From the NCBI GenBank assembly GCA_002633005.1, contig NMRA01000853.1:1-64000 (forward strand): DNA of 64,000 nt, read 5' to 3'. How positions within the stretch are numbered: position 1 is the stretch's first letter; the number at the start of each line of letters is the position of its first letter. The translations under genes were made by a program, and so were the position numbers. Positions 6,399-32,594 of the stretch are shown one piece after another. A model generated the notes under the pieces. It was given only the letters and a program-made list of their open reading frames with translations, did not search any database and had not been told where the DNA came from. Source of the stretch: Phoronis australis. Lineage: Eukaryota > Animalia > Phoronida.

Positions 6399-7574
6399 CA
6401 AGTGTCGAGATCGATTTTGACAGTTGTCCTACAGTGAGGTCTAACGCTTTGTTGGATGCGTTTACTATAGCATCCACCTCATGAGATGTTATGTCTCCTT
6501 GAAACAGCTTGAACGATACCTTGTTATGATCTACTTTGCTAATGAAGCGGGGAATGTTTTGAGAATCTGCGACCGCCGCCTGGCCATACAGTTCCACAAT
6601 ACTCTTTGTCTTTTTCTCTATGTTAGACCTTTGCTGGAAAAAAAAACTTATGTCGGCTTGCTGAACCACGTGACTTATGGATATTATTTTTGACCGAGCT
6701 TCTTGAATCACCTGGCACGCATGTTGCAACCCTTCTCTTGTTCCCCAGATTGAAAAGCTTGTTTTTGAAGGAACATGCAAAATCTCCACAAAGCAATTCT
6801 TGAGAGACGCTTGTATCTGCTCCATATAATTTTCAATCATATAACGGAACTGTCCTTTGCTATCCATTGCAATGTGTTGTTCTAGAACCGTGTGATTTTC
6901 GACAAAGGACCGACTCTCTTTAACAACATCTTGAATGACTGGGGTCGTCGCTGTAATCTCTATAGATGTATGATCTTCATTTTCCTTCATATTCAAATAA
7001 CCAGAATACTGTTCACACTGTGAGTTCTTGAAGTCCAACCACTCATTACTTCTAAAAATCTTTCTCGACGAAGTCGGTATAGAGACCCTTTCAGCTTGAA
7101 GCTCGTTCACCAATAAGGATGCAGCCTGCTTTGCCTGGTTCATGTCGGCTGAAAATAACATCACGTTATTATTTCCTTCATCAACCTCCCAAACAGCAAC
7201 GATAGCGTTGTCTTTGTATCGAGACGCCATGTACTCTGCACACTCTTTGGTGGTTAGAAGTTTAATCTTTTCTGAAGATAAATGTACCATTTTTGACGCA
7301 AGACTTTGAAGCATCCTGATCATGTCTTGTTTGGCAGAGATCACTGACTGTTGCTCTCCAGTAAAGAACACAGTGGAATTTTCAACTTCACTTCGGAAAT
7401 GACACGTCGTGATTGATTTATCGAAACTCGTCTGATGAAGGTATCGCATCTGATGGTCCTTCAGCTTGTAACTCATAGTGACCTGGCCATTAGCCAAATG
7501 CTCTGCTGCAGTATCGGGTCCAGAATGCACGACTGACATTTTCTCGTCACTGTTTTCTTCGGATTCCATGTGAT
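6399..7574 (-). CDS. Exon 9 (1176 nt): PARP14/PARP9-like KH-repeat-like region plus N-terminal part of a macrodomain
   Basis: Long open exon (ORF track 6391..7569) ending VSFKLFQGDITSHEVDAIVNASNKALDLTVGQLSKSISTLG; acceptor tttcag, donor G|GTAAGT. No further exon found in 1-6398. Confidence 0.85.
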
Positions 7575-10500
7575 CTGAAATTACAAAATATATTTCTGTT
7601 CCGCATGAACGCGACTAAACTTCATGTTGAATACAAAAGGTCACGCCACATCATTTGTTCTCTTTCGATTAGCGCTGTGTTGCATAAAAATACAAAATTT
7701 ATCCGCTGGTGTTCAGAAATGTCATTATTGATGACCAATTAATTAGTTAATCGTTAAATTTTGCTGAAACTGAAACGTGTTGGATGATGTAGGAGCTGTG
7801 ATAGCTGTGACACGTGGTCGCTGGGCAATGACAGAGAGTACAAGTAGCTAAAACCATAGCTGACTCGCTAGTGGCCTTTGATTCTTTTCCACCTTCCAAC
7901 CTATGCCTATGCAAAAGTGTAAACATTTTGACCTTTGGGTTACCTTTTAAAAAGCTCGCGCTGTGACTCATGAAATGTAAACCTTAATAAACAATTAATA
8001 AAATATTTATGACTTTGAACTATACAATTGCACATGATAATTCGAGGCATTTTATGCCGATGTCCTCATGGGGTTAAGGCAAAAAGAAACGAAGTTAGAA
8101 AGAAATGAGTTAAGACGGCAATAGAGTGATGAAATGAGTATGAATAGCTGAATGAAATGGACATTCACGGCGAAAACGAGGTGAAATGACTGACTAAGCT
8201 ACGTTAAAAACTATTGGGACTATCAATTTCCTTCAGCACATCAGAAAGGACATGGCATTATCCCACACTAGTGATTTTGAAAATGAACTGTTTTCTTCCT
8301 TAGCAAGAAAATCTAGTCACTTTCAGTGCCTCTCTCGGATAAGCAAAATCCTGGAAACAAAGAAATCAACCGAGGAAATATCAAAATGTGACTAAGTCCC
8401 AGAAAAGAGCTCCCAGAGGGTCTTTTGGAAAAGTGACGAAGCTCAATCGGAAATTTGTAATGCCTTCATTCAGACACCTGCTTTTAAGGTATGTTGTAAG
8501 AGTACGTTTTAGTCTATTAGCAGTTTGCATGCAATTGGCTGCTACAAGAAAATTCTGACGAGATTTCTGTTAACAAGTGATCAGCTTCACATGGGTCTCT
8601 AATGCGGTGTGTGCATTGCGTTGGTGTCGCCTTATAGCTACAGATGTCTGTGAAAGAAATTCAAAAAGCAGCGAAACTACGTACTGTAGAGTTTCATGCT
8701 CAACGTTTCGATTTAATCGCTGTTGAGTGTACATTGTAGTAAATCTCGTAGGTTGTCTATGCATCTGCAAAATGATTCCATTAAGGACCACTTTCACGCA
8801 CTCCACAAAAAAATGACCCATTCCGACATCGTCGACAATACCATCGTTAGGTATTTCGAACAGGATAACTTTCGTCTGAAAATTCTCGAAGCATTAATAA
8901 TGAAAAGTGAAACTCCTGGCAAATCACATCCTATAGGCCTATGTATATACTTGCGCGTTAGGTTACAAGTTAGCTCTAGTAAAAGAACAGTTTTAAATGT
9001 AATAATTTCTAACTTAAAAAAGGTAACAAAGATGAAAACAGCTGTAATTGTGCATAGAACTTGTAACATTTCCTGAAAATAGTTGAATAACAACAATATT
9101 TGATATTGCATTTAGCGAGGAATTAGAGCCTGAGTTGAAGACGATATAATTTTCAGCAATTGAAAACTGAGACACTAAGTGTTATATAATTAACAGTTTT
9201 GTATCAGATGTTAACTTTGGGACCTGCTAATGCATGTCGAGTGTTATTTATACTGCTGCAGTTGTATTACTTTAAACTATATTCGGAAAGTTTGATGATC
9301 GAACCGGCTAAAGACTTCGAGTCTTTGAACTTTCTATGTCAGAGGGCACTATTGAAGTAATGCGGGAGGTGAATACTGACGGAAAACAATATCACATGAC
9401 CGTATTGCACTCGACTGATTCAAAGCGTATGGGATAATTTTTAAACTTTTACATTTTCTTCAAGAAATTATAAGTGGCTTGGGAAGTAAGTTTTTCATTT
9501 GAGCGGAAATATGCAGAGTGGAAAGATGTTTTCTAAAAACTTGGCTAATTCCCTTTAAGCATGAACTGGTCATGGTTATGAAAGGTATTCTATTATTAGT
9601 ATTTAGGACTTTCGTTTAAGTTCTTAAAGATTCATCTCTTGTGATTGGGCGAACTTTGTAGAACTGTTTGCGTACAAGATGCAAGGGGAATTGGCGCTGA
9701 AGTAAGTAATGCTTGAGTTCTTTTAACCGATTATTAAAGGCAGTTTCTTCTGAACACTAATGCGACGAATTCTAAGTGCAAGGCTCTATGGAAGGCTTTC
9801 CTTACAGTGAAAGTGGTGACATGAGTGATATGACAGATATTGGTATTTGTCTGTTCCTTTACGGAATAAGTCTGTACTCTGAACACCCAAGACCTTCCAG
9901 AAAAAAATCTGAAATAGATATTGACTTCAACAAATCACGGTGGATATTGGCTCAGTTTGGACAGGCCAAATTGGTATCACCCGGTACCTTCGACTGAAGA
10001 GCCAGAAGATTGAAGTGTCACAAATGGAGTTAAATGACCCAACTTTGCTTTAATAGTGCTCGCCATATACAAATATTATATATGTTATCGTAATTAATCA
10101 TAGTTTGTAGTTAAGGTGAATCCAGTGGCGTAGCGATAGACCGGTAGCCCAGAGCACTTAGCATAGATGAACGAGATACCAACATCTGACCATAGGAGCA
10201 CTTAAAGTCTACCTCAGTATATACGGAAATGGACGTCTGACGTTATCTGCACTCTGGGTGTCTCCCCTGGGCAGGGACGGATCCAGGATTTTGAGTTAGG
10301 GGGGCAGGGCATAGGAATAACCAGAATTTCGGCAGATGCATGCGCCCAGCTTAAAATTTGGGGATGCAAGAGTCTCAAATTTTTGGGTTCGTGGACTTGT
10401 TGACTAAAAAAAAAGTAACGGGGTTGTTCACTAGGGCCTATGCATCGTTTATTCACCCCGAGTTCCCCTGGTTGCGCGCATCTGCTAATCAGCAATTAGC

Positions 10501-13500
10501 ACCCGAACTTCTAAATGGTATCTGGTAGAATTTTAGGGGGGGGGCATGTCCCCTTTGCCCCCCCCTAAATCCGCCACTGCTGGGGACCTTTAAAAGGGGC
10601 CAAAAGATGAGCTAGACTAGATATTCGAGGTACCGGCCAAATTGATTTGAAACGGACAATTGTACTGCACTGAACACCGAATGACCCAGGAGAGACAAAT
10701 TGTCCTCTGACCCCCAAAATGAACTAGCTATTACATTCGAGGTATCACAAGAAACAATTCCATGTGATTCAATTCATGTTACTGATCACTAAATGCCCTA
10801 TGACAGAAAAATACACTATGGGTTGTGCCCGCCAGAAATCCCCAAAAATGTCGATCACCCTATGCCATTGGAAATTTGAGCTAGATTAGATATTCGAGAT
10901 AATAGCTAAAAAACTGATTTAAAACGAACAATAGTAACGCAATGAACACTGAATGCCCAATTTCAGACAAATTGCAGTCTAGAAAGGGTCCGCTAGAAAC
11001 CCAAAAATGACCCCCTCCCCAAAAAAAATGATCTAGCTCATACATTCGAGGTGCCAAAAAAACAATTCCATGTAAATGAGTACGTGTCACTGGTCATTAA
11101 ATGACAGAAAAAATACACTTTGGGTTGTGCCCGCCAGAAATCCCCCAAAAATGTCAACCACTGTAATTGCTATTGAAAGTTTGAGCTACATCAGATATTC
11201 GAGGTACCGGCTAAAACTGACTTAAAATCAACAGTGTGTGCCGCAATGAACACCGAATGACACAGGACCGACAAATTCTCCTCTGGAAAGAGTCCACCAG
11301 AAAATCAAAAACGACTCCCAAAAAGGAGCTAACTCTTACATTTGAGGTACCACAATAAACAACTCGATGTTATTAAAATAGAAGTTACTAGTTACTGAGT
11401 GGCCTGTGATAGACAAAACCCACTCTGGGTTGTGCGGGCCAGCCTCAGAAGTCTCAACCACGTAATTCTGTTGAAACTGTGATATATTTGACAGAAGATC
11501 CCGGTTAAGTTTTCGTAGAATCAAGAATTGCGACATGGAAGGTGTTGTAATCATGTGCTTTGTTTACATTTCATGGCGATTACTTGTATTTCCGTAACTC
11601 TTTCGCGTCTACTGAACTCTCTCCTTGCTTAAAATTGATAATGACGACACACTGAGTGCCAACTGGATGGTGGTGAAAAATAAGCATCTTGGAAAATACC
11701 TAATAACATTGAAACTTTGGGATACCAGGAACTGTTAAAATCCAACCCATTAAATGATGATTAAGACTGCAGTTACTGCAGCATAATGAGCTATCAAAAC
11801 TGTCCCGTTTTATCCCTAATAGCCGAGCGGCAAAATATGGCTCTATATCACGTGGGAAATTACAATAGTATATGGAAGTATATCGATTTAGCCGTGCGAC
11901 AAAAAGCGAGACATTTAAATGGTGTGGCGCAATGGCTGAAAATTTTTAAAAAGTGGGACAGTCCGCAAAAAGCGGGGCAAATGGCAAATACACAGTATGC
12001 TGTGAGCCACACGAAGTACTGGTTTGGGTTCTTATCAAGGTCAACTTTTTATTTTTTCAAAATCTTATTTCACGGATGTAGTCAAGTCCTACAGGTAACA
12101 GAAGTTATAGGTAAATACTACAGAATAACAAAGTTACTTAAACACACCATTTTTAGGGCCTAAACTTTTCATTTAGGGCGAATGTAACTTCTTTCCGTAA
12201 AACAACTTAGCACGAATTTAACAGTCAAAATTGTCTTGTTGAAAAACTCTAGGTATGCAGAACGGGACATTTTGGCAACCTTCCACCTACAAGAATGGCA
12301 GAAAGACCTATATGGACCATTTCTTGGGGAGAAAAGACTTGTTGTCTGACATGGCGGCAACTGTATTCGCCTTTTTTAAAGTGGTACAATGGCAGCTGAT
12401 CATCCACCGGATTCTCATGGTTCCCATGAAGAGGTCGACAGGTTCCCATGAAGAGATCGACACGCTTCTTACCTTCCACTTAGCCGACTCAAATGGCAAT
12501 GCATTAATCAGGGCCTCTGACACGGATATCATTTTAATTATTGGGTGTCTGTTGAAAGCTTTGTGATGACTACTCCTAGTTTATTTTGATTAAAGATTTT
12601 TTAACACATCTGATGATTTTCCTTAAAATCATTGTTTAGTAGTCAATGTCATGTGTTGTTGCTGAAGTATATTTCCTGCTGACAGTCTCGATAGCTCATT
12701 ATACTACACTAGCTGCAGTCTCAATCATCACTTAATGTTTTTGACCGTTCCTGATATCCCAGAAGTTTTAGTGTTATCAGGGATTTTCCAAATGTTTACT
12801 TTCTGCCATCATCCATTGGGCACTCAGTGTTACCCTATAATTAATTTTAAGCAATGAGAGAGTTCAGTAGACGCCAAAGTATTACGGAAATACAAGAATT
12901 CGCCAAACTAAGCACGTGATCACAACACCTTTCTTATCGAAATTCTTGATTCTACAAAACTCAACCAAGTTTTAAGCGGGATCTTCATTATCTAATTATG
13001 ATATCACAAATTTTCAACAGAATTAAGCGGTTGAACTTTATGGGGCTCGCAGGCAAACCCAGAATGGGCTTTTGGCTGTCACAGGCCATTTAGAAAGCAG
13101 ATGAATTACTTCTATTTGAATCACATGGAATTGTTTATTGTGGTACCTCGAATATATGAGCTAGCTCATTTTGGACGTCGTTTTTGAGTGTCTGTCGGAA
13201 CATTTCCAGAGTGCAATTTGTCTGTCATGGATCATTTGGTGTTCATTGCGGTACTATTTTTTTGTTTTAAATTAGTTTTAGGTATCTCGAATATCTAGTC
13301 TAGCTCAAATTTTCTATGACATACCGTCATGGACATGTCATGGATCATTCGGTGTTCAGTGCAGTACTATTGTCAGTTTTAAATCAGTTTTGGCCAGTTC
13401 CTTGAATATCTAATCTAGGTCATTTTTGGTCCCCTTATAAGGTCACCAGGGGTCACACCCAGAGTGCAGACAACGGCAGACTTCCATTTCTGTATATACT

Positions 13501-16500
13501 GAGGTGGACTCTTAAGAGCCCCTATGGTCAGATGTTGGTACCTCGATCATCTATGCTATGTGCTCTGGGCTGACAGTCTACGAGCACCTCCTCGCCCTCC
13601 CCCCGTCGACACCTCACTCAAGTGGCGCCAGTTTCCACCCCCAACTGGTAGCTGTGTGATCCTCCAGTTAACAGATACCTGGTGCCTGCGTNGCTCCCCC
13701 CCCCCCCTTTCGGCAGGCGCCCAGCGGCACCTGACTCCCTTGCTATGATGCACAGTCAGTCACTAGGTACGTTTGCTATGAAGCCCAGACCGTTGTGTTG
13801 AACTGTGTTTAACTAAAATCTGTCATGAACTGAGTCATTTGTAAAATTGACTGGCATGAATTGTTTTGTCTTGACCTTGAATGTATGCCTTTTCACACCG
13901 TTAATGATCGCACTGTCAGAAATTAAAATTCATAGCAACTTGCAAGGATATTACAATATCAGCACAAAATTACTATGGGTTTTGACCGAGTTGAAGATTT
14001 TTTGGAATGAACAGAGGAACAAAACCCCCTAAGTGCCCCTGTTTCTATGCCAGTGGCTCTCACAACGAAGATAAAAAACACGGGTAAGGCAGATTCGGCT
14101 GGAAGTCGCGTCCACAGTCTCCATGTAAACAAACAGGGACGTCATCTAAAATTAAACGAAGCACGCATGCCAGCCACAATTTATGTAGATACTTTTTTAA
14201 TAAGCAACAATCATCAGTGTGGCTTTGACAGAATAGCAATTACTAGTCCTGTCTGCTATTTGTCTAAAGTACAAACTTTCTACGTCGTTTTTGCAAGCTA
14301 ATCACACGTTTCAAGAGGCCCCCTATTGGTGGTAGAGGCAACTGAGAACAGGCAAATAGGACGAAGTGCAGTTCGTGTAATGCTTCGTAAGCAAAAACTA
14401 CGGGAGAGGCAAGATTTTTTATTTTAGGTTATGAAGAGATTAGGAATGACTAAACAAATTATTATAAGGTCAATTTTAGAAAAGGTGCAATATGGCTGCT
14501 ACAGAGTGCCAAAATTGGCCGAAAATGGCTTCAGTGAAAACCTGCAAAATAGCCGTTTTTTCCGCAAAAAATTAAAGCATACAAATTTGAAACCGATTTT
14601 GAAAGGTATGCCATTAAATTATTCAGTCATAATCCTTTTTAAAAAACCGTATCACTCATTTATTTTCAGCTAGCTATACATGCTAGTAAAATATATTCAA
14701 ACATGTCTACTTTGGCGCCCAAATGGAGATACATGCCACAAAAACAAAGATAATGGATGAAAATTGTTAAAAAAAAGAATTTTCCTACATCTCACCAAAC
14801 CAAACTCATGTGTTAAGTCTCAAAAAATATGTGATTTTGGGTATAGACTCTACCTGTTGGTTTTTATATGGAGTCACTCTTACTGTGTTGATCGATGCGT
14901 TTTTGTCACGGTTGCCGAGACAAATCTTCAGCCACGGAGTCGTAGATGAAGACGCAATGCTTCGCGTAGTGCAAACACGACTGGAAAGTTTGTCTGTTAA
15001 GTCAAAGGACACTGTTGGTGCAGCTAAGCAAGACAACGTAATGACGCAAGTAGCTAGGCACAAGCAACAGGACTGGCTGGATAGAGTCGAGGATCTGAGA
15101 TAGAAGTCATACTTCGACAAACGACAGCTGAACAGGACTTCGTAATCTACGGCCATGGAGTAGTCATTCTCGAGAAATTCTGAGAGTATACATTAGAAGA
15201 GCTTCACGTGCCGCACTCGATCCGGAATAGTTGGGATGAAGGAAGTAGCGCGAAGTTACATGTGGTGGCCGAAGACGGACTCACACATTGAACACGTGGT
15301 AAGCCTATGTGACCTTTCCCAGCACTGTACAAAGCATCTGTATCTCTATAGGTGTGGCCTTGTAGTCGATGGTGCAGACTACGCGGAGAAAAACAAGAAG
15401 AGTGATATCGTTTTCTTGGACGTCTATACCAAGTAGCCAGAGATGAATTCAACGGCATCAACTGCTACTATCGGTGTCTTGGGAAGTTTATTCTCTCGAT
15501 ATGGGTTACCCAAACAACTAGTCAGCGACAACGAACCTCAGTTCAGTAGTGAAGAATTTGCGGAATTTCCGGAATCAAGTACATCAAACTTAGTTTGAGT
15601 TTGTGTGATTTAAGAAGCCCATAAATAACGTAGAAAATAAATCAGAAACTAAATAAGGCAATCCAGATCCTCCCAAGGATACTATTGTTTCACGAAATGT
15701 AGAATATACATGTAAATAGGTAAATGAAATAACAAGAATGGATCATTCTTGTTGTTTTATTTACCTATTTAAGAAGCCCACTAACGGCTCTTGTTGAATT
15801 ATCGTTCAACCAACTCACCTTCCATGTCTTTAAGGTGATCGACGCCCTCAACACATGGGTCACTGGGCGTGCGAGTTTTCTGAGATAAGAAATAAACGCA
15901 TTTAAAAAGCTGCGTATATCCGTTTAAAGCAGTAGAGTAGCCAGTCATCCTTCTGCATGAACCGCACGACCGTTCTCCGAAACAGCATTCTTTTTTACAT
16001 GATATATTCCTAATCTCAACCACCGCACCTGTCATATGCATCGTAAGGTAGCAATTTAAGAAAATTACACGACTTCCCTTTTCCTTTTGTTGATACTCGC
16101 ATGTCGTACACCAATGTTACGACGACTGTACAGTCTACACAAAACTTTAGATTTTTACGGCTTTCTAAGCTTTTTGGTTTGCCATTGTGGAAACATAGTT
16201 TTGATAGAATGTACCAAGCGAGTGCTCATAAGTCATGAATCTCGCCAAAAAGGATTGTTCATGACAAAAAATTGTTTTCTTGAGAAACTCGTGAGGAAAA
16301 ATGTGTCCATGACCGAGAAAAGAACGCCAGTGCAATTCACGCGGAAAAAATGGCTACCCTGAATAATAACAATCAACCGCGAAAGTAAAGGGTGCAGGCA
16401 TTCAAAAACAAGTTCAATTGACTGGCGGATACATAATACACAGTCGATGAGTACCTACCAGTCGAGGGTGACGCCAAACGTCTAACCCATTCACAACATC

Positions 16501-19500
16501 ATTTTTTGACAAAGGCTGTAGAACCCAGAGTCGAAAACGTATTAACTGGTAGGTAACTCATTTATCATGGTGCAGGAACTCACCTAATCAAACAAAACTA
16601 TAGTTATAATAATCTATATATCAAGTTAACAAATTGATGTGGATGCTGATGTAATGTGACAAAATTGGCCAGGAAGGTATTTGCATTTGAAGGCACAATC
16701 TCATCGGTTACAGCAGGGCACCTTACAAGCGAGGCTAATCTCAAGAAATATAAACGTATTTAACTAATAAAGTCTCTGACAAAAACCAACGGCCAAATTG
16801 GCGATTTTTATAGCTCTAGCCAAAGCTGCTTCAAAAATAATCCCAAAATGCATTTTTCGATTGTAAAAACGGTCATGGTTCTTTAAGAGCAGATGCCACT
16901 ATAATAAATTTCCATGTGATTTGTTAACAGCATTGTGGGAAATCAAAATGTTTCGTCGTTGCAACTGAGAATCTGAAAGAGTGAAAGGCAGCCTTAGATC
17001 CCATCAAACCGCTTACCTGAAAAACATCTTTTACACTGTTGTGATCTCTTAGGTAAAATCGTTTGTATGTCCCAACATATTCGTCGTGAAGCAATTTCGC
17101 CATCTCTGAAAATGAATATGAAAGTCATTCGTATTATATGTTTCGTGGAAAAGGTTGATGATTTAATTGTTGCCGATTATTATCCACGACACCCAACTTT
17201 GTACTCTTTCAAAAATTTCCGAATGATAAGGGCCCTAGAAAGAGCAAGACAATTTATTAAATCCCATCAAATAACTAAGGATTTTTAGAGGTTCTTATTT
17301 TGAAATTAACTGCACCAATAAGGATGTTTAAATTACTCAACTGTCGGAAAATACAAATCGTATGCAATTGTTAACCACTACACAGCACCAATTTATGTAG
17401 TAAGGTTTATAAAGTATAGGATTGGTTCTGCTTGTGGGGGAGTGGCGATGACAGATGGTAGCATCATTGGGTTCACCTTAGTACACAGTGTTTCTGATAT
17501 GTCGTGGAATCAACTCACACTAGTTTACTTGCTCTCGTATCACAAATGACACGTAGGGACTACCCAAGGAGCTCACAAGTCAAACGATTTGTCACACCAA
17601 ACTCGGACGTGTTATACACTGTATATTGGTGGAGTAGGCCTAATCGTATGTGACTTTTGATAGCGAAATATCATGCCGTAATGCACCCTACGATTTGTCA
17701 TATACGACAGTTGTAAAAGAATTGGACCGTGTAGACATGTGGTTAACTCGTACTTTTAAAGTTGCTTCTGTCGCACGGCCAGTACTTAAGGCAGTCTGAC
17801 ACCAGGCTTATGAAGATGCGGGGACCACGTTGTTGTTTAAGTTCCTTCACGCAGGCATCTCTAATTCCGTTGAGAATTTGATGTTTAATAGGTTCAATTG
17901 TTAAACCTGAAAAAGTTTGAAAGCTATTAGCCACAATCACATGACAGTGTTGCTTTAAGCGCTTGAAACCACCAATCTCATACCAAAAAGACCAAAAACA
18001 GCCACCACCCCACTAATCGATCAGCTATCAAATTAGAACACTCGCAGACACTAGCTGATGATGTATTAATTAGCCGATCTCGAATTACGAGAATTTATTG
18101 TATTGTCGATACGTAATACTTAGAAGCGGGGCAACCAATCACAGCAAAAGTCATTGTGTTTATTGTGAACAGTCGTCAGATATTGCTTCACGTTTTCCTG
18201 TGGTATATGGTACAATCAAGAATGGTGAGGCGATGCATTTGCTGGCTCGGTATCGTCACTAAGTAACGACACACTTATGTGTACGCATTGCTTTTAACTC
18301 ATAACCTGAAACGCCCAAAATTTCTAAATGAGTTTTATTCTTCAGTAAAAAAATCGTCAGTTCATTCCGAACACTAAAACCACTTAAAAACTTAGAAAAG
18401 TACGAACTTCTAGTTGTAAGTGGTGTAATTTCAAAAGCGTGTGTGCTTGATAAAGACAGTTCCTAAAGAGGGTATTATTGTCCCGACCTGCTGTTTCATA
18501 TGTTACCTTTGAACAGTGGTTCTTTCTTGACGAGTTCGAACAAGAGGACACCAAAACTGAAAGTAAATTTTTGTGTTTAATTTTTAGCTCCTCCCATTAT
18601 GATTATGGTAAACACATTTTTAACAACTAAAAATATAGGCTGATAGAAACCACATCTTTTTACTTAGCTATTATAGACCTAAAAACAAAAAGAATTCGCA
18701 AAGTATTAGAAAATGTAGTTATTGGGAAATTACCTCCACACGTCCGTTTCCGACGTGTTCTTCGGCATTTCTCGTTTAGCAATACTCGGTTTGAACATCT
18801 CGGGAGCCATGTGAGTTGGAGTTCCTTTAGCGACAGGAGAACCGGTCAAGTCGCTGGTGTACCCTTGAAGTGTGGACACGCCAAAGTCTCCAATCTAAGT
18901 GTGGTGAGTCATAAAATAATGCGCTGTCAGACAAATTGCTAGCAACACAAATCTGATTGCTACATAAATAATAGCTGACATAAACTTAATGATTTCATTG
19001 CTGTTGAACAAACTCTCGGTTACTTCACCTTAGCTTTAAATCTGTCACTAATTAAGATATTAGCCAGCTTCAGATCAGAATGGACCAGACTGGGAGTGTT
19101 ATTGTGCAGATACTGCATGGCGTCCGCCACGTCCGTCATCATCTCAACCTGAAACAAAGTAATTAGTCACATGCACCTGTCCATAAAAACTTCAACAGTT
19201 CGAAGCATTTTCAGTGAAATGCGTTGATTTTTTACGAGAATGTGTTTTCTTTGCTTTATTTTTGCAAAAATCTACGAGGGCAGTGTATTTCTACTTCCCC
19301 TACTATTGAACCACGTGAACTTCAGGTACCATCTTACTCGAAAGCTTACTAAAATAAAAGCCAGTGACTTAGCCTTATCTTAAGTACGCTTAAAATACTT
19401 TGGTTTCAGGCTTCAATCCGAGAGGAAAGTGGTCTCAGGAAATCGCTTGTCTCAATATTACTGACCTTGTGACTCGAACCTTCTCACAGAAAAAATGAAC

Positions 19501-22500
19501 CGTAAAGAGTTTGTGTGTATCACAACCCCTTGGCATTACATACCTGCATACCAACTGGAAAATTTGATCCGCGCCACTCCAATTCATTCATGAAATCCTT
19601 CAAGGAGCCATGCTCCAGATATTCCAGTACCAGACCGTATATACCCTTTCCACCGTCCAAAACGATGCCGTAAATCTTGACTATACTCTTGTGTTCTATT
19701 TCACACATTGCTCGCGCCTCCTTACACGCCAAGATCATCTGCTTGTCACTGAAATTGTTTTAGAAAACATTAGAACAGAAAAAATGAAAAATAGATGAAC
19801 ACCGCTAGTATTGTCTCATGGACACGGCGTCGTTGACGTGGTATATAATGAACGACCAATAGGCACGTCCTGCACTGCACGACTCTCACAATGTTACAAA
19901 TGTGTCAAGCTCTATCCCGGTTTCTCACACACAAATGTCACTGTCTCGGGATATCCTAGGTATTATGAAATCCATCATTACAATGTAGGCAAACTTTGAA
20001 TTACTCCAGTTTAGTTGCACAGCTGACCTCAAGGCAAACACACAAGTATTAGTGCTGGATGTGAAAATGCAGATAAAATCCTGATTGAAAGAGCACACAG
20101 GCTACAACGAGGACGAGGAGTAGAAAGGCCAGTGATAGTTAAGTTTAACAGCTACAAAGATAGAGACATGGTCCTGAGAACTGCTCGTCACCAACTCCGT
20201 GGTACCCAATCCAAAATATCTGAAGATTTCTCGCCAAAAATAAGGGAAAGCAGTAAGAAACTCGGTCCGTTCTGATGGAAGCAAAGACAAAGGGAAATCT
20301 AGTGCGAATGGACTACGACAAACTCACAATAAACGGAAAGGCTTATAAATATGACGACTCCACCAAAAACGTCATTGAGCTCGGATCGGGTCCGCGAAAT
20401 GAATAGGATTTAGGCTGAAGCCTACAGCTAAGAGTGAGTAGTTGGAACATAAATGGGTTAAAAAATAAGTTTAAAAGCAATGACATCACTGACTACATGA
20501 AGTCCTTCGATGTATTAGCACTTCAACAGACAGGGGCAGAAACAGAACAAGATTTCTCGTTAGACAGGTTTGTGTGTTTCAGCAAAGTAAGAACGAAAAG
20601 AAAACGTAGTATAAGGAACTCAGGTGGTGTGCTTATTTTTGTAAAAAACGAATTGTCTGGTTATGTAAATGAGGTGGCATCAGATTCGGAAAATATGATT
20701 TGGATAAAATTTGCTGCTGGTATGAATAAGCCACAACTATATTTAGGGAATGTTTATATTTCCCCTCAGGGTTCCAGGCAGATACCATCAAGTGAGTCTC
20801 AAGATAACGAGTGTAATAGTTATGGTCGGGAGTTACTGTACCTTTGTAAAAGCTGTAGAATTAGAATTTTAAACGGTCGCAGTGGTGGTGATAAAAATAC
20901 CGGTAAATTTACTTTTGTGAATACAAATGGAAGTAGTGTAGTGGACTATTTCATGGTCAGTGATGAAATTATTACATGTACCTCATTCATCGATTTTCAA
21001 GTCGGCGATCAAGTCGACTCCAATCATTTTCCGTTGGAAATGATTATAGATGGCGAAGTTTTGTTTAACTTGCAGGTAAACCGCAACAAAACACGGGAAT
21101 CCTACAGTGTCAATGGAACAATGAACAAATCAGCTATAATTTGGAAAGATGAAAACATAAATAATTATTTTGAAAACTTGCAGTTGAGTGAAGGCGGTGG
21201 CTGTCTGGAAAATATGATATTTACCCGGTTGTTATGTAACCGACTCCATTCATGGGCGGATACGAACAATATTGTGTGTGAGGCTCAAGCTGGTTTCAGG
21301 AAGGGGTATTCCACAGTGGATAACATGTTTATTCTAGATACACTACTTAACAAATATTTATTGAAACGTAGAGGCCGGTTCTATTGTCTTTTTGTTGACT
21401 TTAAAAAAGCATTCGACTGGGTTTGGCGAGAGGGTCTTAAGTATAAAATGTTTTGGAATATATGGAAAAATGCATAAAATTCTAAACAGTATGTATGAAA
21501 ATGTGAAGTCTTGAGTCTTGCTGAATGGGGATGGTTACGTAACCGATTTCTTCCAATGTACGATGGCTGTAAGACAAGGGTGTCAATTATCTCCCTTTCT
21601 CTTCTCGCTATTTATAAATGATTTGAAAAGTGATTTACAAAATGTGAAGGGCTCGTGTGTTAATATCGGAATATTGGATTTATATTTGTTGTTGTTTGCC
21701 GATGATTTGGTTCTCGTCGCTGAAACCGCCATTGCCATGCAAAGAATAATTACCAAACTCGAAGAATATTGTAATAAATGGAAGCTTCATGTGAATATGT
21801 CGAAGACAAAAATTATAGTCTTTAGAAAAGGGGGATACTTGAGAACTTATGAAAAGTGGAAATTATTTGTCGAAATTGTACAAACGACTTCAGAGTATAA
21901 TTATTTGGGTATCAAGTTTACTCCTAAAGGTGTATTTACGAAGGCGCAGAAAACGTTAGCTGACAAAGCGGCAAAGGCTATTTTTGTACTAAAAAGCACA
22001 TGTTAAAGTATAATGAAATTTCTGTGCAAATGTGGTTTAAAATGTTTGATACAAAAATATTACAGATCTTGTTATATGGTTCTGAGATTTGGGGATTTCA
22101 CCCCGCACAAGACATTGAAACCGTACAAAATAAATTTTGCAAATTTTGTTGGGACTTGGTCAGCATGTCTCGAGCGCTGCAGTGAAATAAATGTCTGAGC
22201 AAGACAGGTCTTGCTGGGCTCTAAATGTTAAACGATTGTTATTTCCTTATGGTTTTGGAGTTGTTTGGATACAACAAGGTGTGGGCGATGCTGCCTCGTT
22301 GATAAGTGAATTTAAACAACGATGCTTTGATATTGGCATCCAGGATTGGAGAAACAATATTTTTTCTCAATCTTTAGATGTTTACAAAACAAGTAAATGT
22401 AACTTTGTAGTAGAAAAATACGTAACATGTTTAGAAAATAGACTTCATAGAATAGCCCTTACAAGGTTTAGATGCTCCGCACATTCACTAATGATTATCC

Positions 22501-25500
22501 AGGGAAGGTTCAGTGGATTTGACAGCTAAGACAGATTATGTCCCTGCTGTGACAGTGGGAAAGTGAAAACGGAATTCAACTTTCTTCTCGAATGCAATTT
22601 ATATTTGGATTTACGAGTGCGGTTTTTACCACGGTACGATAAGGTGGAAGATATAGTGTTCAGAAATTTTCTACAGACTCATGACTTAAATGTTCTGAGA
22701 AAAGTTGCTAGATATTTAATTAATCCGGAGAAACGCCGAAACAAGTTCCTTGGTATGAATTAATTTAGACTTGAAAAATTATTGTACTCTCTTTGTGTTA
22801 TATATTGTAATTTGGGCCGGAGGCCTGTTACATGAAATAAACCTTAGGAGTGCCTTAGTCACCAGATGGCGAAACCTTTTCGTTCACGAGTTGGCTGACA
22901 TAGAACTGCCCACCAACATGGAAATCGACTACATATTTCGTGAGTTCGCTCGAAAATAGCTCGACAAAGAGACAATTGACGAGAATGAAACAGAAGCAGA
23001 GGAGGAAGTGGAGACAAAAGACTGTTTAATTAAGTGATAGACATTTTGTATAGCTGTTTAATTATGCTACGCATTTTCTACCTCTCCGACAATGGAGAGT
23101 TCAAACCAAAAGTGGTCTATGGTTTACTTTTGGATCTCTTTGGGTTATTACGTGGGGGTAATTATTTGGCATCCCAGAGAATGATATACCTATATCACAC
23201 AGGTGGCATTCATTCGTCAAATTTAAATTGAGTATTCTTCCCCGTCCCATGGCTCTAAGCGCCAAGGTCGGGTGTCAGCGTTTTCATTTGCTCATCCATT
23301 GGCATGAATAATCCTATCCGATGGTGTTTAACCATGCAACTCTATTTGACAAAGTGGTGCACCTGGTTATATCATCTGCATTCTGATTTTATTTATACAA
23401 TCATCAACTAATGAGCGTCCACTGGGGGATTGGAGTATCTACTGATTTCCCTATTTCTAATGACGTAGGCCTAAGTGAAAGTCATATTGTATTCCTTTAC
23501 TGTTGACAATGACGTCGATGACCTATGTGCCGTGTTAAACAATCTCTGTAAGCCTCGTTTTGGTTTCATTATTCCCCTTAAGAAAGTTAGACCACCTCTA
23601 ACAGCATACGGCCTTATTTCTTATTTATTTATTATTTATTTATTATTGTGATATTTAAAGTGAGGGTGGCCTCTTCAGTGATAGCACTGCTTTACAAGAG
23701 GGCCCTCAAGAAGAAAAACAGTAATATAATACAATGAAGTAATAAAACAACAATAAAATATACGTAACAAAGATACAATTAAAACAGGTTGAGAATTAAG
23801 ACATAAACAAAATGACAAATAATGGTAAAAATTTAACTAAGACAGATGAAATAAATTAAGAGATGACTCTAGACAGTGAGAGTATTTACGACAATGAAAA
23901 AATGACATCTTGATTAAGACAGGTAGGGCATAAATGGTTAGGTAAATTACAGCCACTTTTTAATATTTACTTCAAAGGTAGTGATAGAATTGGACCGTTT
24001 AATTTCTGGGATAAGAGAATTCCATATTATAGCAACTGCATAGATAAAAGATCTCTTGCCCGTCTCGGTTTTAATTTTGTTAAAAGAAAAAATTGCCAGC
24101 AACAGAAGAACGTGTAGAACATACAACTTGGCTGCTATTGAATTTACTGCTGAGATATGCTGGAGCCAAGTCATTGATACATCTGTACATACACCAGGCA
24201 GAGAGATATTTATTTCTTTGTCTTACTTTCATAAATCCCAGTTTGGAATACAAGTCGTCAACCCCAGTGTCCCCAATTCTAGTACCCAGGATAGCCCTGG
24301 CGGCTCTATTTTGGATTACTTGGACTTTGCTGACAAATGTGTCACTAGTGTGCCCCCAAACCGGTAAACAATAATCAATATGAGGCTGAATAATAGAATG
24401 GTAAAGGGTTTTAAGAGTACTGACATTAAGAAATTTGCCTAGACGTTTAAGTACACCGATTTTCTTTGATAATTTCTTTGTGATATGATCTATGTGCATA
24501 TTGAATTTAAGATTGGGATCTAAAATAAGGCCCCAGTACTTAAACTTGTCAACATTCTCGATGGGAGAACCGTTGATAGAAAGGGATAGTTTTTGTTGTT
24601 TTAACTTCTGGTGGGTTCCAAACAGCATCGACTTGGTTTTACTAACGTTAAGAGTGAGTTTACTTTGAATCAGCCAGTAATGGATAAGGGCTAGCTCATC
24701 GTTGAGAGAAGTTTCGAGTTCTTTTACTGATCCAGCTGTTGATATACATGTAATTGCAGTGTCATCAGCGTATAAAACTGGGGCACTGTTGTGGAGGACA
24801 GTAGGGAGGTCGTTAACAAAAATAGTGAATAATTGAGGGCCCAAAATGGAACCCTGAGGTACCCCCGTGATTACGGTTGAGTAGTCAGAAAGTATACCAC
24901 CGTATTTTGTGGCCTGTTTACGGTCGTATAAGTAGTTTCTAAACCAAAGGAGTTCGTTATCATTAACTCCATAAGACTCTAGTTTCTGCAGTAGGATACC
25001 ATAGTCCACAGAGTCAAAGACTTTCTTAAGGTCAATAAAGACAGCACCAGTAAGCCTCCCTGATCCATTTTATTAAAGATTAGCTCAGTAGTATGAATGT
25101 TTGTAGTAAGAGTGGAATGCAAGGGGCGGAAACCAGACTGTGCTGCCGAGAGAAGGGAATTTTGCTCCAGGAACTGGTGAAGCTGCTTTTGAACACACCT
25201 TTCAAGAATTTTTGACACTGCAGGGAGGACCGATATTGGTCTATAATTTTCGCAACTTGACTTTTCATCATCTTTAAAAACAGAAGTAACAACTGCCATC
25301 TTTCATTCTCTAGGAATTGTGGCCGTTTTTAAACTTAAATTCATGATATTGGTAAGGTGCTCAGCTATTTGTTGAGACGCCAGTTTTAATAGTTTGACAT
25401 CAATGCTATCGATGCCACTGGCACTACTAGAGTTCAGAGTTTTTGTTTGTTCTCGAACGTAGTCAACTTGAAACTTAAATGATATTCCCTCTTGTATCTT

Positions 25501-28500
25501 GGGCGGGAGCTCAATAGTTGACATACTGAAATTCTCAGCAAGTTTTTGGCCAATGCCAGTAAAAAAGTCATTAAATGCATTTGCTATTTTACTTTTGTCC
25601 GAAAAAACATCGTTTCCAATTAGAAATTCATTTCATAAATTACATGTTAATATTTTGATGACATTTCCACTAATTGACCTCTTACGGTGCATTATGAGAC
25701 CCATGAGGGAAAAATTGTAAACTCGATTAAAAGTGTGGTTAATGCTAAGAATCACAGATGTTTTACTTTAAGCACTTCAGAATACAAGATGAATGAATTT
25801 GTCAAACTTCCAGAAGAAAAATGCACCTAATGACTCCATGGGTGCACCAAATGACCTGAAAATTTAGAATTCAAACTCAATGCATTTACTAAACGGATGT
25901 GTAATTTTGAAGTCTCTAGCTCAAAATTTTAGTTTGCAATCAATGACCTTTGGCCTATTTTCTTCTGAATGGTTAGGCCTATTGCGTAGTAAAGTAGGGT
26001 GCATGTTGACCTACACCAGTGTGCTGAAATTGAAAAGTATTCCTTGAAAAATGTAGGAGATATAACATTTTTAACGTTAGATGACCTTTGCACTAATTGA
26101 CCCTATCCGGTGCATTATAAGCGTCTTTAGGAAAATTATTGGAAAGCCCGTGAAAAGTGTCAGTGTTTAATGCTGAGAATCACAGTTGTCTAAAGGTTGA
26201 CACATCGGAATACTTGCTGAATGAAAAGGACAAATTTTCTGAAGAAAAATGCACCTAATGACCCCATGGTTGCACTAAATGACCTGAAACTTTGTATTTC
26301 GAATTGAATTAGACGTAACAATCAGACGTGTGAATTTGAAGTGTCTAGCTCAAAATTTTAGTTTGTACCTAATGACCTTTGACCTGTTCTATCTGATTGG
26401 ATGATTCGATTACTTTGAAAAGTAATTTTTTAAAATTATCTTGTTGACTTATACCTGTGCACGGAATTTGAAAAAGATAGCTTTAAAACTGAAGAAGGAG
26501 TGGCATTTTGGAAATTATATGACCTTTACACCAAACGACCTCTTCCGATGCAATATAGAATATGAGTATATAACGAATCAAAATTCATGTTCTGTCAAAA
26601 TTCATATGCTGATTTTAAAGAACCTACATGTACCTGCTCCCAATTTGGAGTTATTAAGTGTCAAATTTGGTCGAAAGAAGAATAAGAAGAATGAAGAAAA
26701 CCCAGGAACAACAGTAGGCCTACTCTGCGCTTACACGCACAGAGTAATGATAATAATAATAATAAGAAGAAGGAAATTGAAGAAAACCCAGGAAGAACAG
26801 TACTCTGCGCTTGCACGCGCAGAGTAATTACCGTTGTTTTCATCTTTGTTATCTCTTTTCCAGTAAGAAACCGTTACATTTAAAACTGTTTCTTTTACCA
26901 GAGAAAACTTGTAACCTAACGCGCAAGTATATACATGTATGATGTGATCCGCCACTTGAACTGTCTGGTTGAAGTATTTAAAAAATGTGCCGAAAAAATG
27001 AACGAAACTTAGGAATTCGAAGCGTATGGGATAAATGCAAACGTACCTGGATTTGTCGTGGGATATTACTTCATCTACGCCACTCTCGGTACGGTTTGAG
27101 TATTTATGTCCCTTATATACGGTTCACTTACATGGTGAAAATTAAAGTCTACAACCTTGAACACGAGCACGTCGTAACCACAATGTTTTTCTCCAAGTGA
27201 ATGTGCTTCGCCACCTTAGGTAAGGTTTTCTTCAGCTTCATGTGTCCTTGTCTTGTTATTAAAGCAAAGCAATGAATGAATTAAATTATGAGCCGTTTTT
27301 TTTCGCTTTTCCGTTCGACTGTGCTGTTTCAGTAACAGCAGTCCGGAGACTTTATTCATTCGAATGCATTTAAAATGATCTGCCATTTATCGAGTAGGGT
27401 GTAGCTCCGCCAGCAGAGCGTTAGACTGTGACCGCGGGGTTTCCTTGCCGATAATGTCTCTTAAAGTCTTATCTAATCACTTTCGCGCCTCTGTTGCTTC
27501 TCCAAAATACACTTATAAAAATAACTTGCCATACGTCGAGCTCCTGTTTAGCGTACAAATAAATAGAAGTTAACTTGATAGTTCATATACATATATTATT
27601 TTCCTAGCACCAGTTTCTATTTATAGTAACACACTACTTTCATATTGCTACACCTAACCTATCCCTTATTGGTCAGTTTTCTTTAACTTTATTATGGTAG
27701 CATCCCTACACCATCTCATATACTTGTTCACAAAACGTGTTTAACAGTTCTTCAAATAGGCTAATAACATAACACGTCAAAAAATCCAAAAGAAAGATTT
27801 TTAATATTCCAGAAGTGCCCATTGCATGCCCAGCGGCTAGGTGTACTCAATTGAGTAGACATGGTTCTAGTTCCCATCTTAACTGCAGGGTCTCTTCTGA
27901 GGTTTCCATGAACGACCAGGAAAGAAAAGTAGACTGAGCAACCATTCGCTTGATGGTCACTTAGGAACTTTTATAATGCATGCTTTCAAGACTGACATTA
28001 TTGTAATATTCTTGTCATTTTAGGAATATATTTGCAACGAGGCAAGCACCCATGAAAACCTAACAATGTGTTACGACTAATTCACGCAAACAGGAAGTGC
28101 AATCCAAAACGAGGCTACGATAGCTCCGTTAATCGCACTGCTGTCTTCCCCGTTGCTTGAACTGCGACAGAAAAAACATGGACAATTAACTGTCTTTTTT
28201 GTAATCCCTAAAGACGTTGAGAATCAGAACCGTTGTGTCGTTGCCATACGCCGAGACGAAGGGAAATATTTTCGGATAATATTGATAAGTGTTTTCGAAA
28301 GTTTGATCACATTTTGTCGTATCTCGGTTGCCCAGAATTATAGCAACGACCGGTGAATCTTTGGCCAGCCAAGCTGTGTTTTCATAACGACAGGTTGAAA
28401 CACAATGGATTACGTTTCAAAAAAGACAGAGCCCACAATCCTTCTTGATTTTTGGGGCCGAATATCGGCCATATCCCCTCTGAAAAATATTGAAGAATGA

Positions 28501-31500: not shown

Positions 31501-32594
31501 TAGTGGGAAATGCTAGTGTCTTTAAAATTAATTAAAAACATTTAAGCAAACCAATTCTTTTAATTGTTGTATTATACCACGGCATATTAATGCGTAGAAA
31601 CGGCGCACAACTAGTGACTGGTTTAACATGACAAATACACATACGCGGTCTGAAAATAGTGAAATTCAGACACCTATTACCAAGCCTGCCTGAAGGGCTG
31701 ACAAAGTTTTTATTGTATTAATTTCAAGGGCATGGAGTCTTCTACATGTCCATGTTATTATTTTTAGTTTTCTCGCGGGGGCAGCTTCGCTATAAGGGTA
31801 CAACTTACTGCTGGTTTTTCACAAGAAGGAAATGTACCTCCACGGAAACAGTTCCAGTGTTACCATGGTAACAGATATTGCAGTGTCGGTGCCGTTTTTA
31901 CTGACATTGGTCATGAACCTATCATGTGATATCAAAATTGTTCAGAAACGATTCTGTTTGAAGCAGAAACTGGAGTAGAAAATTTGGTCAAAAATGACTC
32001 ATTCCACACCAAGAAATTGCCTCATTTTGCCCCCAAGAACACTTCCCTTGTATCTCCTAAACCACCAAACTTTGTGGTGTCATACTTCACCCAATTTCTC
32101 TCATCCCTAATGTGATTTATCAGACTAAACATGAATCTGAATGGCTGACCCCCCACCTTGTCACTTGTTGGCTGTACAGTGGTCGGTGGATCCGCGGACT
32201 GATACTTAACATTACTATGACCATAGAATTCTAGGACTTCCCATAGTTCCATGCTATGACGACTATACGTTAGTGAACAGCACAGTACTCTACTTTTCAC
32301 CACGTATAAAAATAATAAAGGGTATAATAATCTTATAAAACTAAACACAATCTGATTCGGTGCATTAAACTGCGTTAGCTATGTGGATACCCACCGTTCT
32401 GTAAATCTACGTTGTTCAATAACTTTTAAAGCCACGTCCAGTTTTCCTTTGAATTTGCTTTTGTGCACTGTAGCGAAACCACCAGCTCCGATAATTTCTT
32501 CCGCCACGGATATGTCTTCCAACTTTATTTCAGGGCACTTCAAGCTCTTCCGAATGGTCTCCGCACGCTTCGTCTTGTCATGGTTGTTAGCCAT
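6399..32594 (-). CDS. Spliced gene (9 coding exons seen, about 738 aa, 3'-incomplete): RIPK-like protein kinase fused to PARP14-like region and macrodomain
   Basis: Exons 32594-32395, 19748-19544, 19148-19029, 18894-18734, 18556-18507, 17906-17754, 17105-17017, 15879-15819, 7574-6399. All GT-AG, phases 2,0,0,2,1,1,0,1 give one open frame. Kinase motifs GAGGFATV, VALK, KEARAM, HSDLKLANIL, DFG, APE, DVWSFG; macro motif QGDITSHEVDAIVNASN. Confidence 0.8.
8720..8925 (+). mobile_element. Penelope-like element GIY-YIG endonuclease remnant
   Basis: RRLSMHLQNDSIKDHF...NTIVRYFEQDNFRLKILEALIMKSETP resembles the C-terminus of a Penelope endonuclease. Confidence 0.6.
10137..13580 (+). mobile_element. 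Academ-type non-autonomous DNA transposon with very long TIRs and 3-bp TSD (CGA)
   Basis: cga|TAGACCGG...CAGTCTA|cga; inverted homology from the ends to about 11800 and 12680; central remnant HEEIDTLLTFHL...RASDTDIILI (XPG/PIN-like motif); same family as 1707-5078. Confidence 0.75.
10272..10579. mobile_element. Small MITE nested in the Academ TIR, 5-bp TSD CTGGG
   Basis: ctggg|CAGGGACGGATCC...AAATCCGCCACTG|ctggg; absent from the homologous TIR copies. Confidence 0.75.
14950..15580 (+). mobile_element. Ty3/Gypsy integrase remnant (intronic)
   Basis: ILEELH...MKEVARSYMWWPKTDSHIEHVVSLC (HHCC region) and LFSRYGLPKQLVSDNEPQFSSEEFAEF (rve core), frameshifted. Confidence 0.8.
15819..15879 (-). CDS. 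Exon 8: linker
   Basis: Acceptor tttatttcttatctcag; KTRTPSDPCVEGVDHLKDME; donor G|GTGAGT; phase 0 to 1 bridges exon 7 and the large exon. Confidence 0.72.
17017..17105 (-). CDS. Exon 7: kinase C-terminal helix
   Basis: Acceptor cattttcag; KMAKLLHDEYVGTYKRFYLRDHNSVKDVFQ; donor CAG|GTAAGC; phase 1 to 0. Confidence 0.75.
17754..17906 (-). CDS. Kinase exon 6 (subdomains X-XI)
   Basis: GLTIEPIKHQILNGIR...LVSDCLKYWPCDRSNFK; acceptor ttttcag, donor A|GTACGA. Confidence 0.85.
18507..18556 (-). CDS. Kinase exon 5 (subdomain IX)
   Basis: SFGVLLFELVKKEPLFK; phases 2 and 1 fit both neighbours. Confidence 0.9.
18734..18894 (-). CDS. Kinase exon 4 (DFG to APE)
   Basis: IGDFGVSTLQGYTSDLTGSPVAKGTPTHMAPEMFKPSIAKREMPKNTSETDVW. 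Confidence 0.93.
19029..19148 (-). CDS. Kinase exon 3 (catalytic loop HSDLKLANIL)
   Basis: VEMMTDVADAMQYLHNNTPSLVHSDLKLANILISDRFKAK; canonical splice sites. Confidence 0.93.
19544..19748 (-). CDS. Kinase exon 2 (subdomains III-V)
   Basis: DKQMILACKEARAMCEIEHKSIVKIYGIV...GLVLEYLEHGSLKDFM; acceptor tttcag, donor CAG|GTATGT. Confidence 0.92.
20040..22842 (+). mobile_element. Degenerate non-LTR retrotransposon (RTE-X-like): ORF1 remnant, APE endonuclease, RT, C-terminal Cys/His motif
   Basis: SWNINGL...SSVVDYF...DSNHFP (APE); QAGFRKGYSTVDN, FVDFKKAFD, RQGCQLSPFLFSLFIND, LLFADD, KTKIIVFRKGG; stops and frameshifts; ends in AATAAA. Confidence 0.9.
23615..25660 (-). mobile_element. 5'-truncated CR1/L2-group LINE (RT) with AAAT-type tail
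   Basis: NYRPISVLP, QSGFRP, GVPQGSILGPQLFTIFVNDLP, YADDT; frameshifted; (TTTA/TTA)n at 23621-23648 on the plus strand. Confidence 0.9.
25670..26830 (+). repeat. Non-autonomous repeat with internal direct duplication, (AAG)n tract and duplicated 3' hairpin (Helentron/DINE-like)
   Basis: About 25675-25980 is similar to about 26095-26400; hairpin ACTCTGCGC-loop-GCGCAGAGT at about 26803-26826 with an imperfect copy at about 26722-26745. Confidence 0.45.
32395..32594 (-). CDS. Kinase exon 1 (start codon, Gly loop, VALK)
   Basis: accATGG context with in-frame upstream TAA; IGAGGFATVHKSKFKGKLDVALKVI; donor CG|GTGGGT. Confidence 0.88.

What the first reader, a model, noticed from the sequence alone, without database searches (positions are those of the whole stretch)
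6399..32594. RIP-kinase-like domain fused in frame to a PARP14-like KH/macrodomain protein
Seen: a complete kinase domain (exons 1-7) continues through a short linker exon (15879-15819) into a 1176-nt exon ending in a macrodomain start. Every phase matches and there is no stop. Known: RIPKs normally carry death, CARD, RHIM or ankyrin tails, while PARP14/9/15 carry RRM/KH-macro-(WWE)-PARP domains without a kinase. Inference: a chimeric innate-immune protein coupling ADP-ribose or RNA sensing to phosphorylation, possibly with a PARP catalytic domain beyond the left window edge. I do not recognise this architecture from model organisms.
Basis: partly seen in the sequence, partly recalled or inferred. 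Interest (0 to 1): 0.8.

Follow-up and report, generated by a model that had tools for sequence, protein, structure and literature searches.

The report
RIP-like kinase joined to PARP14 KH-macrodomain
Nine exons of an invertebrate animal genome join in frame into an intact RIP-type protein kinase followed by the KH-domain array and macrodomain start of a PARP14-like antiviral protein, which likely makes one unreported immune signalling protein, although no RNA read yet shows the join.

Summary
Nine minus-strand exons (32594-6399) have GT-AG ends, match in phase and give 738 residues without a stop. Exons 1-7 are an intact non-RD TKL kinase; exon 3's best PDB hits are RIPK2, with CTR1 tied. Exon 9 is the PARP14-like block of four KH folds plus about 40 residues of a macrodomain. 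It lacks the RRM/KH1-2 front part, which is found nowhere in the window, so each half looks incomplete without the other. None of the 150 best homologues (86 of them 700 aa or longer) carries a kinase. Seven paper searches found no such architecture. The fusion is not proven. RNA reads show essentially no sense transcript, only a spliced antisense RNA over exon 9. Exon 9 has its own ATG, exon 8 could be terminal, and a single N, possibly a contig join, lies in the critical intron. Odds: about 60% one fused gene. The KH folds lack GxxG and the macro loop is reader-type, so a clustering-activated, ADP-ribose-recruited kinase is likelier than an RNA sensor. Any PARP domain lies beyond the window.

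The parts
32395..32594 (-). Exon 1: start ATG (in-frame stop 9 nt upstream), Gly-loop GAGGFA, VALK lysine
19544..19748 (-). Exon 2: alphaC glutamate, hinge EYL
   Evidence: Pfam PK_Tyr_Ser-Thr E 7.7e-9; PDB hits JAK1/TYK2/ZAK/RIPK1; Atlas kinase clusters 0.97-0.98
19029..19148 (-). Exon 3: catalytic loop HSDLKLAN (non-RD)
   Evidence: Pfam Pkinase E 4.7e-7; 11 best PDB rows RIPK2 E about 2e-6, CTR1 tied at 2.8e-6
18734..18894 (-). Exon 4: DFG, activation segment to APE, DVWS
18507..18556 (-). Exon 5 (50 nt): alphaF
17754..17906 (-). Exon 6: kinase C-lobe, subdomain XI arginine
17017..17105 (-). Exon 7: end of kinase, donor CAG|GTAAGC, phase 0
15819..15879 (-). Exon 8: 61-nt linker exon, phase 0 to 1, donor AAG|GTGAGT; if read through, stop at 15801-15799 and AATAAA at 15761
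   Evidence: no RNA support
6399..7574 (-). Exon 9 (1176 nt): linker with an ATG at 7569, four KH-type folds, macrodomain start; phase 1 at both ends
6679..7485 (-). Four tandem type-I KH-like folds (about PARP14 KH3-KH6), no GxxG loop
   Evidence: AF2 pLDDT 88; VIA Z 8-9.8 to KH domains
6399..6525 (-). First 40 or so residues of a macrodomain, reader-type (MD2/3-like) loop, cut at an intron position shared with homologues
   Evidence: all 12 PDB rows are macrodomain folds or designs on them, best E 0.0014
5700..8488 (+). Exon of a spliced antisense RNA that covers exon 9; intron 8489-9661 (GT..AG), next exon from 9662; left end approximate
13692..13692 (.). Single N inside the intron between exons 8 and 9: ambiguous base or contig join

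Best explanation
The nine exons likely form one gene whose predicted protein is an intact RIP-type kinase joined to the KH-like array and macrodomain of a PARP14-like protein, and it would be switched on when the macrodomain and KH folds cluster it on ADP-ribosylated immune complexes. Shown: the in-frame exon chain, intact catalytic motifs, PARP14 homology and KH fold of exon 9, missing GxxG loops, reader-type macro loop, and absence of RRM/KH1-2 in the window. Inferred origin: a RIPK-like kinase gene replaced the RRM-KH1-KH2 front of one of the many invertebrate PARP14 duplicates, entering at the KH2-KH3 linker. Inferred working: (1) infection induces mono-ADP-ribosylation foci; (2) the macrodomain(s) bind them; (3) the GxxG-less KH folds act as protein-contact surfaces in place of the death/CARD/RHIM tail; (4) crowding dimerises the kinase, which trans-autophosphorylates and signals to NF-kB/MAPK or cell death. 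Steps 1-4 are analogy, not tested. Given one gene, I put this mechanism at about 0.4.
For: 738 codons, 8 of 8 phases, no stop. Exon 8 has a consensus donor in phase 1; 8 of 1000 resampled stretches give such an exon. No Pfam match to a macro, PARP, RRM, KH, death or other plausible host exon in 53 minus-strand ORFs of 40 aa or more between 7575 and 17124. HMMs of homologue KH1-2 and RRM regions find nothing in six frames of the window (best E 0.37 and 2.2), while the core HMM finds exon 9 at E 3e-61 and 9 of 10 held-out KH1-2 regions score E<1e-21. 49 of 60 short single-ORF homologues run 90 aa or more further upstream than exon 9, so exon 9 is front-shortened and needs another 5' part. The exon-9 donor is at a shared position: 30 of 30 short homologues that reach it end within 30 aa. 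The only indel listed within exon 9 is an in-frame 3-nt insertion (3 of 5 reads). Invertebrate PARP14-likes do take foreign N-termini: 1 of 50 scanned has a GT4-conflict domain. KH-like domains without GxxG mediate protein contacts in PARP9/14/DTX3L (PMC11080071, passages). MD2/3 are readers and PARP14 forms foci (PMC13224862, section 6). Forced dimerisation activates RIPK1 and RIPK3 (PMC8169668, passages).
Against: No sense reads over exon 9 (first-mate-plus depth 0 across 6224-8700 in 3 of 3 raw-read runs), depth 0.06 or less in the non-repeat kinase bins 16531-19512, and no listed joint or loose end at 7574, 6399, 15819 or 17017 (rows not shown: 33 joints and 502 loose ends, 13 loose ends). 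0 of 171 fetched proteins carry a kinase, so no conservation supports the fusion. Exon 9 has an ATG at its second full codon (7569); 9 of 60 short and 2 of 82 long homologues also begin near this point. Exon 8 read-through gives a stop followed by AATAAA. A single N lies in intron 8, and another single N in this window (52443) sits between 763-bp duplicates, the mark of a contig join. Exons under 40 codons would escape the Pfam scan.
Confidence: 0.6

Rival explanations
1. Two neighbouring genes on the same strand: a kinase-only RIPK-like gene (ending in exon 8 at about 353 aa, or in a short unseen last exon) and a front-shortened PARP14/PARP9-like gene starting at the ATG at 7569. The phase match is then a 1-in-3 coincidence.
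For: Stop at 15801-15799 then AATAAA at 15761. ATG at 7569. Kinase-only RIPK homologues of 254 and 344 aa are listed for amphioxus (PMC9573974, Table 3 passage). Some homologues start near the same linker. No junction reads. No homologue has both parts.
Against: A consensus donor inside a last exon is unexpected. The AATAAA lies in a palindromic repeat that reads from other loci cover heavily. Exon 9 has a clean phase-1 acceptor 5 nt before its ATG. Both halves would need unseen parts (a last exon; a promoter and non-coding first exon) inside a repeat-rich 8 kb.
Confidence: 0.28
2. A silent or dying locus, or an assembly join: a transposon-rich rearrangement or a scaffold join at 13692 placed a kinase next to an orphan PARP14 exon that has lost its downstream exons, and no protein is made.
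For: No sense expression seen; an antisense RNA covers exon 9 instead. No macro continuation in 6.4 kb. Single N in intron 8. LINE and LTR fragments in the introns.
Against: No stop or frameshift in 738 codons, all catalytic motifs and all 17 splice sites canonical. Introns of 12.6 and 8.2 kb in the same gene make a further intron over 6.4 kb plausible. No duplicated flanks at 13692, unlike 52443. Only about 18-19% of each run was read, and immune genes may need induction.
Confidence: 0.12

Closest known systems
PARP14 and invertebrate PARP14-like proteins (e.g. Lingula anatina XP_023932230.1 = P0002; Branchiostoma belcheri KAI8490692.1 = P0011)
   Same: KH3-KH6 block running straight into a macrodomain (P0002: E 2e-28, 31% identity; names); exon ends at the same point in the macrodomain.
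   Different: RRMs and KH1-2 are absent and a kinase stands upstream; the first macro lacks the HxGG loop found in 41 of 56 first-position macros and has the loop type of 21 of 29 later macros; WWE and ART unseen.
RIPK1-5 (RIPK2, RIPK1, RIPK4/ANKK1) and the amphioxus RIPK homologues
   Same: N-terminal TKL kinase with intact catalytic motifs and a non-RD loop; exon 3 best matches RIPK2, exon 2 matches RIPK1 among others.
   Different: No death, CARD or ankyrin domain found in the window. The amphioxus partners listed in PMC9573974 are LRR, DEATH, ZU5, SH3 and Zalpha; 'PARP' occurs 0 times and 'macro' only as macrophages in its main text.
Protist ankyrin-kinase-PARP proteins and a Bacteroidales kinase-macrodomain protein (unchecked earlier AI notes)
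   Same: Kinase and ADP-ribose domains in one chain.
   Different: Other lineages and domain order, no KH array; no homology to this locus tested. At most a convergent pairing.
PARP9/DTX3L KH-like domains
   Same: KH folds without GxxG beside macrodomains, used for protein contacts (PMC11080071).
   Different: No kinase; those contacts were shown for other KH units than the KH3-6 block here.

Membership tests
RIP kinases (RIPK1-5 group) | TKL-group kinase domain with intact catalytic residues | tested here: met
   Pfam PK_Tyr_Ser-Thr on exons 2 and 3; GxGxxA, VALK, alphaC Glu, HSDLKxxN, DFG, APE, DVWSFG all present
RIP kinases (RIPK1-5 group) | Kinase groups with RIPK1-5 rather than other TKL/TK families | tested here: inconclusive
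   Exon 3: RIPK2 first, CTR1 tied. Exon 2: JAK1, TYK2, ZAK rank above RIPK1. Only single exons could be searched; no kinase tree was built.
RIP kinases (RIPK1-5 group) | C-terminal death, CARD, RHIM or ankyrin tail | tested here: inconclusive
   No such Pfam match in 96 minus-strand ORFs of 40 aa or more in 1-17124 or in exon 9; RHIM and short exons could be missed and the 3' end is outside the window
RIP kinases (RIPK1-5 group) | Shared intron pattern with RIPK2 (50-nt exon, intron before IxDFG) | not tested
   Recalled resemblance only; no RIPK2 gene was fetched
PARP14 / macro-PARPs | KH array homologous to PARP14 directly before a macrodomain | tested here: met
   267 hits at E<=1e-3; 39 of 50 Pfam-scanned hits have Macro and 27 of 50 have PARP; Atlas first hit KH_PARP14 cluster 0.91; fold
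PARP14 / macro-PARPs | N-terminal RRMs and KH1-KH2 | tested here: not met
   No match in six frames of the window; 9 of 10 held-out controls found; tblastn of 150 homologues outside exon 9 best E 0.044
PARP14 / macro-PARPs | Complete macrodomain(s) | tested here: inconclusive
   About 40 residues present; remainder not in 1-6398
PARP14 / macro-PARPs | First macrodomain of hydrolase (MD1) type with HxGG loop | tested here: not met
   Motif absent; present in 41 of 56 first and 0 of 29 later macros. Short-HMM scores did not separate the types (20.0 vs 16.9 bits), so this is a motif-level result.
PARP14 / macro-PARPs | WWE and ART (PARP) catalytic domain | not testable with these tools
   Beyond the left edge; no genome held
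Canonical RNA-binding KH domains | GxxG loop | tested here: not met
   0 of 4 folds

The most novel reading that the evidence does not exclude
An animal RIP kinase has taken over the front end of a PARP14 gene, giving one chain of kinase, KH array, macrodomain(s) and, beyond the window, WWE and an ADP-ribosyltransferase: a self-amplifying switch that writes mono-ADP-ribose, reads it, clusters on it and turns it directly into RIPK-type death or NF-kB signalling, held silent at rest by an antisense RNA over its sensor exon.
Probability: 0.3. Interest if true: 0.78.

Novelty: new variant of a known kind. Interest (0 to 1): 0.52.

Why it matters
In vertebrates, PARP14-type ADP-ribosylation and RIP-kinase signalling are separate arms of innate immunity. 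A natural fusion would show that an ADP-ribose reader module can replace the death/CARD/RHIM tail as the trigger of a RIP kinase. It would give a single-protein test of whether mono-ADP-ribose foci act as activation platforms and of what the GxxG-less PARP14 KH3-6 block does. If it is two genes, it is an ordinary pair of expanded invertebrate immune families.

Tried and rejected
No genome held, so the 3' end could not be followed. No RNA holder was listed in the run index (not evidence either way); 3 raw-read runs and 1 contig set of the same species label were laid instead. Word-index protein searches found nothing for exon 9 or kinase exon 2, and only 2 kinase-free PARP14-likes for alignment A1: weak negatives. 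Metagenome contigs: no relative. Three window ORFs are not in the protein collection. Single-sequence fold failed (pLDDT 36). Pfam does not call exon 9 directly (best KH_PARP14_4 E 0.007, below cut-off). Foldseek top rows were secretin N-domains and KH proteins with low TM-scores; I relied on the VIA rows. My first exon-6 boundary was one base off and was corrected. A splice-site matrix trained on 6-7 sites ranked the exon-8 donor 2 of 634 but the acceptors only 16 and 22 of 624 and the exon-9 donor 52 of 634; too few training sites to weigh. A quick tree (74 rows; first 70 core rows plus 3 chosen rows and the window) left the window on a long branch with no close kin. No Rfam match. Earlier-findings look-ups were empty. 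Only the top 150 of 267 homologues were examined, 64 of them under 700 aa and mostly single-exon fragments that could not show a kinase; Pfam was run on 50 of the 150.

Full report
Observation. The window is animal-type DNA (38% GC, spliceosomal introns, LINEs). The model ends in phase 1 at a GT donor inside a macrodomain. An in-frame stop 9 nt before the ATG fixes the N-terminus. The 392-codon exon is far beyond chance (P about 3e-10). The 61-nt linker is the weakest piece. It is the only strict candidate in 17016-7575, and 8 of 1000 resampled stretches gave one (138 of 1000 with a loose donor, under which the real stretch has 2). The criteria were chosen after the fact.

Kinase. Exons 2 and 3 match Pfam kinase models. 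All catalytic motifs are present, and the loop is HSD, not HRD. Exon 3's 11 best PDB rows are RIPK2 with CTR1 tied. Exon 2 ranks JAK1, TYK2 and ZAK just above RIPK1. 'RIPK-like TKL kinase' is fair; orthology is not shown. From memory the intron pattern resembles RIPK2; no call tested that.

Exon 9. HMMER over 1.84 billion representatives gave 267 hits at E<=1e-3. Of the 150 listed I Pfam-scanned 50: 39 carry Macro and 27 PARP, most with PARP14-type RRMs. Named ones are from a brachiopod, molluscs, a hemichordate and amphioxus, at about 20-31% identity. With a 57-row alignment AlphaFold gives pLDDT 88, and VIA-align matches four segments to KH domains (best Z 9.8, rmsd 2.6 over 72 residues). 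None has GxxG. The macro start matches macrodomain structures weakly but consistently. It lacks the HxGG loop of 41 of 56 first-position macros and shows the pattern of 21 of 29 later ones, which suggests a reader rather than a hydrolase, though short HMMs did not separate the types. The donor position is shared with 30 of 30 short homologues that reach it. The 5' end is not: 49 of 60 extend 90 aa or more further upstream, over KH1-2, while 9 of 60 begin near the same point.

Is it one gene? For: no RRM or KH1-2 remnant lies anywhere in the window, with working controls. No other host coding exon was found between the halves (53 minus-strand ORFs of 40 aa or more scanned; 3 ORFs holding an N and the exon-7 overlap were left out). 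Exon 8 ends in a consensus phase-1 donor and exon 9 opens with a phase-1 acceptor. Against: exon 8 read through gives a stop and AATAAA; exon 9 has an ATG at 7569; kinase-only RIPK homologues exist in amphioxus (PMC9573974, Table 3 passage); a single N at 13692 may be a contig join, as the N at 52443 appears to be; and 0 of 171 fetched proteins have a kinase (86 of the first 150 are 700 aa or longer).

RNA. About 18-19% of each of three raw-read runs was laid. Kinase exons are essentially uncovered. Exon 9 is covered at depth 1-6 in two runs, continuously across both splice sites and in one read orientation only. Seven reads leave the window at 8488 and resume at 9662, a plus-strand GT..AG intron. 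That fixes the orientation: the RNA is antisense, and no sense read was seen over exon 9. The runs therefore neither show nor contradict the junction. The sense gene is silent or very low in these samples, which fits an inducible gene and a dead one alike.

Mechanism. If fused, the kinase stands where PARP14 has its nucleic-acid-binding RRMs, and the KH-macro part stands where RIPKs have their clustering tail. GxxG-less KH-like domains serve as protein contacts in PARP9/14/DTX3L (PMC11080071, passages). MD2/3 read ADP-ribose and PARP14 forms foci (PMC13224862, passages and section 6). Forced dimerisation activates RIPK1/3 (PMC8169668, passages). The best reading is an ADP-ribose-recruited, proximity-activated immune kinase.

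Novelty. PARP14-likes are often duplicated in invertebrates with varied extra domains, none a kinase in the passages read (PMC4245714). Amphioxus RIPKs have varied partners, none macro or PARP in the main text (PMC9573974). Seven searches of the open-access library listed no paper on this architecture; I saw listings only for papers not named above, read no supplements, and subscription papers and InterPro were not searchable. Unchecked earlier notes report kinase-PARP fusions in protists and a kinase-macro protein in bacteria, so pairing a kinase with ADP-ribose domains is not unique; the RIPK-like plus PARP14 KH-macro join in an animal was not found elsewhere.

Verdict. Real exons and correct domain calls; fusion about 0.6, two genes about 0.28, dead locus or assembly join about 0.12. 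New variant of known kinds; interest 0.52, rising to about 0.78 if a full kinase-KH-macro-PARP transcript is shown.

Noticed in passing
window 44553-52250 (+): Two tandem three-exon genes of the Tae4/Dae4 amidase family (exons near 44553, 47176, 49660 and 49940, 51585, 52092), with DTCG cysteine and GH[IV]D histidine motifs; Pfam Tae4 E about 1e-7. They look like domesticated antibacterial amidases, as described for Nematostella (10.1101/2021.05.13.443009, passages). They put a second immune gene family beside the kinase locus.
   Followed up: partly
window 5700-8488 and from 9662 (+): Spliced antisense RNA across exon 9, seen in runs X1 and X2 but not X3; joint 8488>9662 from 7 loose-ended reads in X2; no ATG-started ORF over 70 codons.
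   Followed up: partly
window 42812-43690 (+): 293-codon open frame with Pro/Thr-rich hexapeptide-like repeats just upstream of the first Dae4 exon; possibly a mucin-like stalk exon of that gene. No Pfam match.
   Followed up: no
window 51680-53206: 763-bp 98% tandem duplicate split by a single N at 52443: likely an assembly artefact that duplicates the last Dae4 exon.
   Followed up: yes
window 20027-22760 (+) and 24083-25632 (-): Two decayed LINE retroelements (endonuclease, reverse transcriptase) inside intron 1.
   Followed up: no
window 15197-15433 (+), 8717-9073 (+): LTR integrase zinc-finger fragment (Pfam E 0.001) and a fragment that by eye resembles a Penelope GIY-YIG end (recalled resemblance; no Pfam match) inside intron 8.
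   Followed up: no
window 1875-2631 and 4229-4941: 298-bp tandem repeat family, with dispersed copies at about 10580-11435 and 13116-13580.
   Followed up: no
P0008 (XP_077990954.1, Glandiceps talaboti): A 3027-aa PARP14-like protein with an N-terminal GT4-conflict glycosyltransferase domain (Pfam E 8e-23): another foreign enzyme on a PARP14 front end.
   Followed up: no
P0001, P0003: Unnamed ORFs of 1527 and 1337 aa made largely of PARP14-type KH repeats: much-expanded KH arrays.
   Followed up: no
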